Source: Promethearchaeota archaeon (GTDB taxonomy: Archaea > Asgardarchaeota > Lokiarchaeia > Sigyniarchaeales > SOKP01). From it: a stretch of 64,000 bases of DNA. The translations under genes and the position numbers were made by a program. A model generated the notes under the pieces. That model did no database searches. It worked only from the letters and a program-made list of their open reading frames with translations, and was not told the DNA's origin. The stretch spans positions 96,001 through 160,000 of the forward strand of contig JAHLWS010000078.1 in the NCBI GenBank assembly GCA_019057795.1. Direction: 5' to 3'. Below are positions 29,890 to 38,258 of the stretch, in pieces (position 1 is the stretch's first letter; every line of letters begins with the position of its first letter).

Positions 29890-31098
29890 ATGAAAGCTAT
29901 AGAATTAAGAGCAAAATGGGATCCTAAACCAGATTTCAAACTTGGTTTAAAGGATAATGATGGAAAGCTTACTTATCTCGGTTCTCAAGTTTGGAGAGGT
30001 CCACATATAAGTGTTGTGGATAAGGAAAAGCCAAAGATTCTTCCAAATGAAGTGCTTATCAGAGTAAAACGCTGTGGAATTCTTTAAAGATTTGTTTTAA
30101 AGAACACAATATGCGGCTCTGATGTTCATATGAATCAGGCTTACGATGATGGGTATATCTATTATCCTGGGCTAACAGCATTTCCAGTAACCCTCGGACA
30201 TGAATTTGCAGGAGAAATTGTTGAAGTAGGATCTCAAGCAATAAGTAAAAGGACTGGGAAACATTATGAAATAGGAGAGCCTGTAACCGTAGAAGAAATG
30301 GCATGGTGTGGTGAATGCAAACCTTGTTGTGATGGATATCCGAATCATTGCGAACGATTACAAGAAATTGGTTTTTCTATAGATGGAGCGTTTGCCGAGT
30401 ACATAACGGTTCCAGCAAAACTTTGTTGGAGTTTAAAGAAATTAGAAAGAAATTACGATGATGTTTTTAAAATTGGTAGCTTGGTTGAACCAACTTCAGT
30501 TGCTTTCAATGCAGTTATTGAGAGAGGTGGAGGCATTCGTCCAGGAGAAAATGTTATAATCTTGGGGGCTGGACCAATTGGATTAGTCTCTACTAAAATA
30601 TTGAAGACCGCAGGAGCGGGGTTATGCATTGTTTCAGAACCTGAAGAACATCGAGCGTCGTTAGCTAAACAAATGGGAGCCGACTATGTTATTAATCCTC
30701 TTAAAGAAAACTTTGTAGAAAAAGTAAAAGAATATACCGACAATGAAGGTGCAGCGCTATATCTTGAAGCTACAGGATTGCCACAAGTAGTAACTGATGA
30801 CATTCAAAATGCTATTTGGGAATGCAAGGCGGTTAATAGTACCGTCGTAATAGTTGCAAGAGCGGAACAAAGAATGCCAGTGTGTGGAGAGTTTTTTCAA
30901 GTCAAAAGGGCTAGAATTGTAGGAGCTCAAGGGCACTCAGGACACGGAACTTTTTTCAACGTAATTAGTTCGATGGCAGCTGGTATGGATGTTACTCCGA
31001 TGATTACAAAAGAAATTTCTCTTGAAGAAGTCCCAGAAAACATAAAACTTTTACAAACTGATAGAAAAAATTGCAAAATCTCCGCAATTATAAACTAA
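29890..31098 (+). CDS. iolM: scyllo-inosose 3-dehydrogenase, interrupted by a 30-nt insertion
   Basis: The 79-aa and 322-aa ORFs share a frame; AKWDPKPDFKLG...LTYLGSQVWR and YYPGLTAFPVTLGHEF match Thermotoga IolM; removing 30 nt restores VKRCGICGSDVH and a 392-aa protein. Confidence 0.88.
30080..30109 (+). other. 30-nt hairpin insertion with in-frame TAA; candidate BHB-type mRNA intron
   Basis: TTCTTTAAAG-ATTTG-TTTTAAAGAA stem; TGTG/CACA pairing; AAT direct repeat makes the boundaries slide by a few nt. Confidence 0.55.
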
Positions 31099-31105
31099 TA
31101 TGGGA

Positions 31106-31918
31106 CTACAAAATCGATCTTAAATATTGCAAAGAGCTTTTCGCTACTTCTTCAAAAGAAGGCTTCATAATTGTTTCAATTGAAACAAATTCGCTATACC
31201 CTGCGTTTTTAAAAATACTTAGAAAAGTTTTAAAATCAAAATGCCCTGAACCGGGAGCTCTTCGAGTTGTATCTGCTAAGTGTACATGTCCGACATGACG
31301 GGCCACTTCTTTTAAATTCTCCCAAACATAGATAGGATCTTCTTCTAAATGCGTATGAAATGAATCAACTAGCAACTTTAAGTACTCTGATCCTATTTCT
31401 TCAATTAATTTTAATGATTGAGAAATCGTATTATAGGAATCTATTTCGAAACGATTAATAGGCTCAAACACGAGCATTACGTTATTGTCTTCAGCTAACT
31501 TACAACATTCTTTTAAGGAAGAAATAATGTTTAACCTTTCTTTATTTGGATTACTATTGTGTTTGAAACGACCTCTTATTAACCCTATTATGACTTTAGA
31601 TCGCGTTTCTCGAGCAAAATTAATGTATTTTTCAATTCTTTCTATCGCTTTTTCCCGATTAGACTTTTCAGTATCTCCAAAAGAATACCCATAACGTATA
31701 TATGTGCTCCCTGTGCCAAGAGCAGAGATTTTTAATTCGTAAGATTCCGCAATTTCCACAATTTTATCAACATCGATTTTTTCAGGTTCAAGAAGGCTTA
31801 ATTCTACCCCATCATACTGTAAAGGCGCTAGTAATTGGCATAACGACGAAAACTTTTTGATTATGCCCTCTTTGTTGCTTTTAGATTCGTTTAATCCGGC
31901 AACTATACTAAGCAACAT
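31106..31918 (-). CDS. iolO: 5-keto-L-gluconate epimerase (xylose-isomerase-like TIM barrel)
   Basis: ISALGTG, VIIGLIRG, EPINRFE, DSFH, HVHLADT.R.APGSG; adjacent to iolM/iolN. Confidence 0.78.
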   Translation of the reverse strand: MLLSIVAGLNESKSNKEGIIKKFSSLCQLLAPLQYDGVELSLLEPEKIDVDKIVEIAESYELKISALGTGSTYIRYGYSFGDTEKSNREKAIERIEKYINFARETRSKVIIGLIRGRFKHNSNPNKERLNIISSLKECCKLAEDNNVMLVFEPINRFEIDSYNTISQSLKLIEEIGSEYLKLLVDSFHTHLEEDPIYVWENLKEVARHVGHVHLADTTRRAPGSGHFDFKTFLSIFKNAGYSEFVSIETIMKPSFEEVAKSSLQYLRSIL

Positions 31919-38154: not shown

Positions 38155-38258
38155 TGGGCCTGGCAGGATTCGAACCTGCGACTTTGGGTCAATGGAAGTT
38201 TCCATCTTGACATCCCAGTCCGAAGCCGGGTACCCTATCCAGACTAGATTACAGGCCC
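38155..38258 (-). tRNA. tRNA-Arg(TCG) with a 29-nt variable-loop intron (38183-38211, position 45/46)
   Basis: GGGCCTG/CAGGCCC, CCCGG-CTTCGGA-CTGGG, GCAGG-TTCGAAT-CCTGC; central helix TGGG/CCCA. Confidence 0.92.

What the first reader, a model, noticed from the sequence alone, without database searches (positions are those of the whole stretch)
30070..30120. Candidate spliced intron in a protein-coding gene (iolM)
Seen: exactly 30 nt with an in-frame TAA sit inside the catalytic-zinc motif C-G-I-C-G-S-D of an otherwise intact gene. The insert forms a ~10-bp stem, and exon TGTG can pair with insert CACA. Its size matches the five 28-31-nt tRNA introns in this window. One BHB register (helix GTGG/ACAC with one G-A mismatch, both bulges AAT) excises 30080-30109 and restores the frame. 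Caveat: the better-paired TGTG/CACA register would excise 32 nt and frameshift. Known: EndA-spliced mRNA introns occur in crenarchaeal cbf5. Such an intron in an Asgard metabolic gene would be notable.
Basis: partly seen in the sequence, partly recalled or inferred. Interest (0 to 1): 0.85.

Follow-up and report, generated by a model that had tools for sequence, protein, structure and literature searches.

The report
tRNA-type mini-intron in Asgard iolM
A 30-base hairpin carrying a stop codon splits the zinc-binding motif of an inositol-pathway dehydrogenase gene in a Loki-type Asgard archaeon, and comparison with 65 relatives indicates it is cut out of the mRNA by the tRNA-splicing enzymes, a kind of splicing published for hardly any archaeal protein gene.

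Summary
A 30-nt insert (window 30080-30109) with an in-frame TAA sits inside RCGI|CGSDVH of an otherwise intact iolM gene. It is not an artefact or a decaying gene. An insert of 29-30 nt lies at the same codon in 7 species of 3 genera and in 2 metagenome contigs. Loops differ, the hairpin is kept by compensatory changes, and both bulges are AAU in all but one genome. The 29-nt versions shift the frame, so they must be excised. In those two genomes a canonical hBHBh' motif predicts exactly the frame-restoring cut. In the window the same register has 3 of 4 central pairs plus a G.A mismatch. It ranks 2nd of 180 registers, and a 32-nt register folds 4-5 kcal/mol better. Exons are under purifying selection. 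Two further 30-nt introns occur at other codons of the same gene family. The genome has two EndA genes and RtcB, and its only uL11 and hppA genes carry similar inserts. No RNA data could be obtained, so splicing is inferred, not shown. This scan had already noted similar introns in other genes of this genome; I checked two of those myself. Verdict: BHB-type mRNA intron, confidence about 0.8.

The parts
29890..30079 (+). iolM exon 1 (codons 1-63 plus the first base of the Ile codon), ending ...CGC TGT GGA A
   Evidence: aligns to residues 1-64 of uninterrupted orthologues
30080..30109 (+). 30-nt mini-intron (inferred cuts after A30079 and after A30109)
   Evidence: Insert relative to 49 orthologues; same site in 7 genomes and 2 metagenome contigs; register supported by canonical BHB in G079 and G059
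30085..30087 (+). in-frame TAA inside the intron; stops translation of unspliced mRNA after 65 codons
30074..30077 (+). 5' strand of central helix H (GUGG, exon 1), pairing with 30104-30107
   Evidence: U:A and G:C invariant, outer pair G:C, G:U or mismatch, inner pair G.A in genus g1 and G:C in G079 and G059
30078..30080 (+). 5' bulge AAU (cut between A30079 and U30080)
   Evidence: AAU in 8 of 9 sequences, AAA in G059; cut rule from PMC2738675
30081..30103 (+). intron hairpin h' (9 bp, 30081-30089 with 30095-30103; loop 30090-30094)
   Evidence: 96% of cells paired, 3 pairs with compensatory double changes, loops variable
30104..30107 (+). 3' strand of central helix H (ACAC, intron)
30108..30110 (+). 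3' bulge AAU (cut between A30109 and U30110)
   Evidence: invariant AAU in all 9 sequences
30110..31098 (+). iolM exon 2 (..TA TGC GGC TCT GAT GTT CAT ... stop 31096-31098)
   Evidence: ADH_N, ADH_zinc_N; dN/dS 0.04-0.09
30057..30072 (+). exon-1 strands of outer exon-exon helices (30057-30065 with 30116-30124; 30070-30072 with 30113-30115)
   Evidence: MFE fold; present in the G000/G137/G009/L071/L072 clade; flanks differ in the intron-less sister alleles
30113..30124 (+). exon-2 strands of the outer exon-exon helices

Best explanation
The 30 nt at 30080-30109 are a bulge-helix-bulge (tRNA-type) intron in the pre-mRNA of iolM (scyllo-inosose 3-dehydrogenase). Inferred mechanism: in the transcript, exon-1 GUGG pairs with intron ACAC. 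This short helix is flanked by two AAU bulges, by a 9-bp intron hairpin, and by exon-exon pairing. The heteromeric (alpha-beta)2 splicing endonuclease EndA cuts after the second residue of each bulge (after A30079 and A30109). RtcB then joins the exons to give GGA-AUA-UGC, which restores the catalytic zinc motif C-G-I-C-G-S-D. Unspliced mRNA would end at the intron's TAA after 65 codons. Shown here: the insert, its conservation, its covariation, the selection on the exons, and the presence of the enzymes. Inferred: that it is removed at the RNA level, by these enzymes, at these two phosphodiester bonds.
For: (1) Same-site inserts of 29-30 nt occur in 7 of 65 orthologues from 3 genera and in 2 metagenome contigs. 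They come from independent assemblies, so this is not an assembly artefact. (2) The 29-nt versions (G079, G059) shift the frame, so stop-codon readthrough cannot rescue them. In both, the best-scoring strict hBHBh' register (H GUGG:CCAU 4/4, 3-nt bulges, h' 9 bp, h 2 bp) excises exactly the bases needed. (3) Covariation: 88.9% of cells are paired against 40-53% when partners are slid; 3 hairpin pairs have double compensatory changes; 0 of 500 shuffles reach the observed score; the loops are free to vary. (4) Exons are intact in all carriers. Exon 2 has dN/dS 0.04-0.09. In G024/G012, where dS is about 1.4, exon 1 has 0.15. The six codons CGSDVH between the insert and the first downstream ATG vary only synonymously. 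(5) Across 12 inserts at three sites of this gene family, the protein-restoring register ranks 1st of 180 in six, 2nd in four (including the window), 3rd in one and 5th in one. (6) The machinery is present: two EndA paralogues, one with and one without the catalytic His context, and RtcB. Asgard EndA is reported as (alpha-beta)2 with the broad-specificity L1 loop (PMC5829648). (7) The same genome's only uL11 gene and only hppA gene are split by similar hairpin mini-inserts. A tRNA 8 kb away carries a 29-nt canonical intron. (8) The insert is unique in the genome, so it is not a repeat family.
Against: There is no RNA-level evidence. A metagenome scan for the junction returned only insert-bearing DNA. 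No database protein equals a spliced translation. In the window's own sequence the central helix has only 3 of 4 pairs (G30077.A30104), and the in-frame conformer is 4-5 kcal/mol less stable than the MFE fold. The MFE geometry would give a 32-nt, frameshifting excision. In G024 and G012 the central helix has only 2 of 4 pairs in the in-frame register. [quoted passage not shown] My ORF-based genome scan showed no excess over shifted-cut controls.
Confidence: 0.8

Rival explanations
1. The insert is removed from the RNA, but not by EndA at a BHB. An unknown hairpin-recognising excision activity would act instead, or EndA would cut in a non-canonical register fixed by the long hairpin and exon clamp.
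For: In the window clade and in G024/G012 the central helix is imperfect, and thermodynamics favours another register. The hairpin, not the central helix, carries all of the covariation.
Against: In 6 of 12 inserts of this gene family the canonical rule is the top-scoring register and gives the exact product. Both bulges are conserved as AAU, except AAA for the 5' bulge in G059. EndA and RtcB are present, and no other candidate enzyme is indicated.
Confidence: 0.08
2. Disabled gene: the insert is a DNA-level insertion (a footprint with an AAT duplication), and iolM is a pseudogene or is expressed only as a truncated protein from the ATG at 30130.
For: There is an in-frame stop. A 3-nt direct repeat AAT flanks the insert. 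Uninterrupted alleles exist as DNA in close relatives (L070, a 10-kb contig), so the insert is dispensable. Gene callers report 322-aa products.
Against: The insert is retained at the same codon in 3 genera with compensatory stem changes. No further stops or frameshifts occur in any carrier, although dS reaches 1.4-2. Exon 1 is constrained in G024/G012 (0.15). CGSDVH upstream of the first ATG shows only synonymous changes. A product starting at M30130 would lack the catalytic Cys. The 5' bulge is AAA in G059, so the repeat is not a strict target duplication. The insert has no other copy in the genome.
Confidence: 0.05
3. Translational bypass or recoding: ribosomes hop over, or read through, the 30 nt (as in T4 gene 60).
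For: A stop codon and a hairpin follow shortly after an Ile codon (ATT). An Ile codon (ATA or ATC) sits at the 3' edge.
Against: The 29-nt versions need a frame change. In G059 no codon matching the take-off GGA or AAU lies before the landing site (ACC AUA AUA UGU, read). In the window the take-off codon AUU and the landing codon AUA are not read by the same tRNA (established decoding rules). The stop is two codons after the putative take-off codon, not adjacent to it. Readthrough would add 10 poorly conserved residues inside the zinc motif.
Confidence: 0.03

Closest known systems
BHB intron of the cbf5 (pseudouridine synthase) pre-mRNA in Desulfurococcales and Sulfolobales (Watanabe 2002; Yoshinari 2006; Yokobori 2009, PMC2738675)
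   Same: A short intervening sequence in a protein-coding gene with an often unconventional BHB. Predicted cuts fall between bulge residues 2 and 3. It depends on a hetero-oligomeric EndA. Presence and absence among relatives are patchy (gain and loss).
   Different: Here the lineage is an Asgard (Loki-type) archaeon and the gene is a metabolic enzyme. The insert is 29-30 nt. At least three intron sites occur within one gene family. The intron is polymorphic among alleles about 94% identical at nucleotide level. The spliced RNA has not been observed here, whereas cbf5 cDNAs were sequenced.
Non-canonical tRNA introns of Asgard archaea and Thermoproteales (bioRxiv 10.64898/2026.10.13.758758; PMC5829648; PMC3241643)
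   Same: The same motif class (hBHBh', HBh' and relaxed forms), the same size range (median 22-23 nt there, 29 nt for the tRNA-Arg intron in this window), the same enzymes, and repeated gains.
   Different: The host RNA is an mRNA. Correct excision is constrained by the reading frame rather than by the cloverleaf. That preprint does not mention mRNA.
Unconventional cytoplasmic splicing of XBP1/HAC1 mRNA (IRE1 plus RtcB; own knowledge, mentioned in PMC10653391)
   Same: A small (26-nt in XBP1) non-spliceosomal intron, defined by RNA stem-loops, is cut by a protein endonuclease that leaves cyclic-phosphate and 5'-OH ends, and the exons are joined by RtcB. It works like this.
   Different: The endonuclease is IRE1, not EndA. 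That event is a regulated frameshift switch. There is no evidence here for regulation.
Translational bypass in phage T4 gene 60 (own knowledge)
   Same: A coding gap of tens of nucleotides containing a stop codon and a hairpin.
   Different: Matched take-off and landing codons are required there and are absent here. This family was tested and the defining feature was not met.

Membership tests
Archaeal BHB intron (EndA/RtcB-spliced) | Two 3-nt bulges on opposite strands separated by a 4-bp helix | tested here: inconclusive
   Window: bulges AAU and AAU; helix GUGG:ACAC has 3 of 4 pairs plus G.A; a competing 32-nt register is more stable. The homologous introns in G079 and G059 meet the feature fully (4/4).
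Archaeal BHB intron (EndA/RtcB-spliced) | At least one flanking helix (h' in the intron and/or h between the exons) | tested here: met
   h' is 9 bp with 3 compensatory pairs. Exon-exon pairing of 3 + 9 bp is seen in the window clade.
Archaeal BHB intron (EndA/RtcB-spliced) | Cutting between bulge residues 2 and 3 yields a functional product | tested here: met
   Excising 30080-30109 gives RCGICGSDVH, identical to the uninterrupted orthologues. The rule is from PMC2738675.
Archaeal BHB intron (EndA/RtcB-spliced) | The genome encodes a broad-specificity EndA and an RtcB ligase | tested here: met
   Two PF01974 genes (97.7 and 70.5 bits; about 200 aa each, one lacking the catalytic His context). 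RtcB scores 561 bits. The L1 loop itself was not examined.
Archaeal BHB intron (EndA/RtcB-spliced) | A spliced junction (and a circular or linear intron) is observed in RNA | not testable with these tools
One search found only insert-bearing DNA. One search found no identical spliced product.
IolM, scyllo-inosose 3-dehydrogenase (NCBIfam NF041097, equivalog) | Whole-protein score above the curated cut-off (450 bits) | tested here: met
   The uninterrupted homologue P0001 (98% identical over exon 2) scores 489.1 bits. The window's own exons were scored only separately (exon 2: ADH_N and ADH_zinc_N). The neighbouring gene is IolO-like but below its cut-off (233.8 against 300).
Programmed translational bypass (T4 gene 60 type) | Matching take-off and landing codons, with a stop codon directly after the take-off codon | tested here: not met
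   Window: AUU and AUA, with the stop two codons later. G059: no cognate landing codon.
Repeat or mobile-element insertion (MITE or footprint) | Other copies in the genome, and a strict target-site duplication | tested here: not met
   No other copy within 3 mismatches in 4.95 Mb. The 5' 'repeat' is AAA in G059.

The most novel reading that the evidence does not exclude
The iolM intron is one instance of a genome-wide layer of EndA/RtcB-dependent mRNA splicing in Loki-type Asgard archaea. In this reading, ~30-nt introns interrupt even essential single-copy genes (uL11, hppA). They are gained at new codons and spread to, or are precisely lost from, the same codon in different lineages. Evidence: site A falls in four separate places on the gene tree while its sequences are homologous, and two further sites exist in the same gene. 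This would make protein-enzyme-based mRNA splicing a routine part of gene expression in the closest prokaryotic relatives of eukaryotes.
Probability: 0.55. Interest if true: 0.9.

Novelty: new member of a known kind. Interest (0 to 1): 0.75.

Why it matters
Introns in archaeal protein-coding genes that are removed by the tRNA-splicing endonuclease are documented in print essentially for one gene (cbf5) in Crenarchaeota. Here the same kind of intron sits in a metabolic gene of an Asgard archaeon. It is conserved across genera and polymorphic among near-identical alleles. Other sites exist in the same gene, and similar inserts occur in essential genes of the same genome. If confirmed in RNA, three things follow. 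Gene callers systematically truncate or split such genes (322-aa calls for a 392-aa enzyme). Mini-intron gain and loss in mRNAs becomes directly testable with natural intron-plus and intron-minus allele pairs. And it bears on what kinds of mRNA splicing existed in the archaeal lineage nearest to eukaryotes.

Tried and rejected
A metagenome-contig scan with a pattern matching both spliced and unspliced G000-type alleles returned only two insert-bearing DNA contigs. None of 120 close database proteins equals the spliced translation of an insert-bearing genome (best 97.5%). The 392-aa proteins at 98% identity come from intron-less DNA alleles about 94% identical in nucleotides.

2. Genome-wide scan. 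I looked for strict-geometry BHB inserts whose excision restores a long ORF. There was no excess over shifted-cut controls (365 against 351-395; with strong hairpins 10 against 11-20). Junctions between adjacent genes and relaxed registers swamp the signal, and the 100-codon flank excluded this very intron. The scan is uninformative; it does not show absence.

3. tRNA detection. ARAGORN on the window found no tRNA, and with introns allowed it performs poorly on this genome.

4. Repeat family. No other copy of the insert was found.

5. My first 'allowed register' test wrongly required an identical nucleotide product (ATT against ATA). This was corrected.

6. The high exon-1 dN/dS in the window clade (0.4-0.9) looked like decay, but intron-less sister alleles show the same (0.75-0.94). 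I rejected it as evidence.

Full report
OBSERVATION. The + strand of the window carries a 392-codon MDR/zinc-dehydrogenase gene from 29890 to 31098. Its frame is broken only by 30 nt that contain an in-frame TAA (30085-30087)...VKRCGIL*RFVLKNTICGSDVH.... Exon 2 matches ADH_N and ADH_zinc_N. An uninterrupted homologue that is 98% identical passes the curated NCBIfam equivalog cut-off for IolM, scyllo-inosose 3-dehydrogenase (489 against 450 bits). The convergent neighbour (31106-31918, minus) is IolO-like. The insert folds into a 9-10-bp hairpin. The MFE fold of 30055-30130 has a helix-bulge-helix-bulge-helix shape and is better than shuffles (z = -3.7). The insert has no second copy in the 4.95-Mb genome.

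COMPARATIVE EVIDENCE. I searched 135 genomes of the same family and found the orthologue in 65. Nucleotide alignment to an uninterrupted reference shows 49 loci without any insert and three insert sites.
- Site A is the window's site (codon 64, RCGI|CGSD). It is occupied in G000, G137, G009, G024 and G012 (genus g1, 30 nt each), in G079 (genus g22, 29 nt) and in G059 (genus g17, 29 nt). Two metagenome contigs also carry it.
- Site B (codon 337, VGAQ|GHSG) has 30-nt inserts in four genomes.
- Site C (codon 67, CGSD|VH) has a 30-nt insert in one genome.
The 29-nt inserts shift the frame, so they cannot be tolerated by readthrough and must be excised.

STRUCTURE AND REGISTER. The literature rule is that EndA cuts between the second and third residue of each 3-nt bulge of a BHB (PMC2738675). 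In G079 and G059 the best-scoring strict motif has these parts: h of 2 bp, bulge AAU or AAA, H = GUGG:CCAU (4/4), bulge AAU, and h' of 9 bp. Applying the rule removes exactly the 29 nt needed to restore GGA-AUA-UGY. The window's intron is homologous and takes the same register. H is GUGG (30074-77) with ACAC (30104-07), giving three pairs and a G.A mismatch. The bulges are AAU (30078-80) and AAU (30108-10). h' is 30081-89 with 30095-103. The cuts fall after A30079 and A30109, so the intron is 30080-30109.

On the 9-sequence alignment (A1) this structure has 88.9% of cells paired, against 40-53% when partners are slid. Three hairpin pairs carry compensatory double changes (U:A to A:U; U:A to G:C; A:U, G:U and G:C). 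No shuffle out of 500 reaches the observed covariation score. Loops vary freely. The 3' bulge is AAU in all nine sequences, and the 5' bulge is AAU in eight and AAA in G059. With a scorer that tolerates one mismatch, the protein-restoring register ranks 1st of 180 in six of the 12 inserts at sites A-C, 2nd in four (including the window), 3rd in one and 5th in one.

WEAK POINTS. In the window's own sequence the in-frame conformer is 4-5 kcal/mol less stable than the MFE fold (-16.5 to -17.5 against -21.6 kcal/mol). The MFE fold uses UGUG:CACA and a 4-nt bulge, and would give a 32-nt, frameshifting excision. In G024 and G012 only 2 of 4 central pairs form. [quoted passage not shown] The motif in the window alone is therefore weak evidence, and the case rests on comparison. 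No RNA evidence could be obtained.

SELECTION. All carriers have intact exons. Exon 2 has dN/dS 0.04-0.09 in carrier pairs. For G024/G012, which share the intron by descent and are saturated at synonymous sites (dS about 1.4), exon 1 has dN/dS 0.15. Exon 1 looks fast in the window clade (0.4-0.9), but intron-less sister alleles show the same (0.75-0.94), so this is not intron-related decay. The six codons CGSDVH lie after the insert and before the first in-frame ATG. They vary only synonymously across the seven genomes, so they are translated in frame with exon 1.

MACHINERY AND CONTEXT. The genome has two roughly 200-aa EndA paralogues. One has and one lacks the catalytic His context, which fits an (alpha-beta)2 enzyme. 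Asgard EndAs are reported to be of this type with the L1 loop that gives broad specificity (PMC5829648). RtcB is present. The only tRNA detectable in the window (Arg-UCG, 38155-38258, minus) carries a 29-nt intron (38183-38211) with a perfect central helix UGGG:CCCA (my reading). Following leads from earlier notes of this scan, I read two other loci myself. The only uL11 gene is split by two hairpin inserts around a 30-nt micro-exon encoding GPAVGPTGIN. The only hppA gene has a 30-nt in-frame insert and a ~34-nt frameshifting hairpin insert before DTAGPSINT. This organism therefore needs to remove such inserts from essential mRNAs.

EVOLUTION. On the gene tree, site-A carriers fall in four places: a G000/G009/G137 clade, a G024/G012 clade, G079 and G059 (at least 4 changes). 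The introns are nevertheless clearly homologous, and those of G079 and G059 are nearly identical in stem and central helix. Intron-less DNA alleles about 94% identical in nucleotides sit as sisters to the window clade. This means either repeated precise loss or lateral spread to the same codon. I did not resolve which.

RIVALS.
- A pseudogene or footprint is contradicted by conservation, covariation and selection.
- Translational bypass fails for lack of matched take-off and landing codons, and because of the 29-nt versions.
- Readthrough would insert ten unconserved residues into the zinc motif.
- Excision by something other than canonical EndA cutting cannot be excluded for the relaxed versions.

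COMPARISON WITH THE KNOWN. The closest precedent is the cbf5 pre-mRNA intron of Crenarchaeota. My searches of the held literature found no report of mRNA introns in Asgard archaea. The October 2026 preprint on Asgard tRNA introns does not mention mRNA. I file this as a new member of a known kind: a BHB-type mRNA intron, at confidence 0.8. The wider reading, routine EndA-dependent mRNA splicing in this lineage, I rate as plausible at about 0.55.

Noticed in passing
window 38155-38258 (-), intron 38183-38211: tRNA-Arg(UCG) is the only tRNA that Rfam detects in the window. It carries a 29-nt intron in the variable region (45/46) with a perfect central helix UGGG:CCCA and bulges AUG and AAG. ARAGORN misses the gene in default mode.
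   Followed up: partly
L074 1423-1975 (-) = G000 C73 about 108426-108978: The only uL11 gene of the genome is split by two hairpin mini-inserts around a 30-nt micro-exon (GPAVGPTGIN). Exon 1 ends ...SGGPPI, and exon 3 starts IKDVVDAVNEK.
   Followed up: partly
L075 1312-3528 (-) = G000 C56: The only hppA gene has a 30-nt in-frame insert without a stop (extra DYSLFRAKSI inside FMSNA|GGAWDNAKK), which Pfam reads through. A ~34-nt frameshifting hairpin insert follows GDTVGDPFK, and the conserved DTAGPSINTLL continues in another frame.
   Followed up: partly
L040-L043 (G066, G071, G070, G061): iolM orthologues of other genera carry 30-nt BHB inserts at two other codons. Site B (VGAQ|GHSG) has H GCAC:GUGU, bulges AAG and AUG, and h GGC:GCC. 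Site C (CGSD|VH) is a perfect hBHBh' with h' of 10 bp and h of 8 bp. G061 has both.
   Followed up: yes
gene tree of 66 iolM sequences: Site-A introns occur in four separate lineages, although their sequences are homologous. Intron-less alleles about 94% identical in nucleotides are sisters to the window clade. This implies repeated precise loss or lateral spread to the same codon.
   Followed up: partly
window 30057-30065 with 30116-30124, and 30070-72 with 30113-15: The intron-bearing G000/G137/G009 clade has a 9-bp plus 3-bp exon-exon clamp around the intron. The intron-less sister alleles differ at these mostly synonymous positions (ATCAGAG/CTCTGAT against ATTCAAG/TTCAGAT). This may be co-evolution of exon sequence with intron presence.
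   Followed up: no
whole genome G000: Only 27 tRNA matches by Infernal and 29 by ARAGORN (some spurious) in a genome scored 100% complete. This fits many tRNA genes being too interrupted to detect.
   Followed up: no
protein collection: P0018, P0023: Public gene calls of 322 aa (up to 22 member sequences) correspond to the ORF downstream of the insert. Intron-bearing iolM genes are therefore routinely annotated as N-terminally truncated proteins.
   Followed up: no
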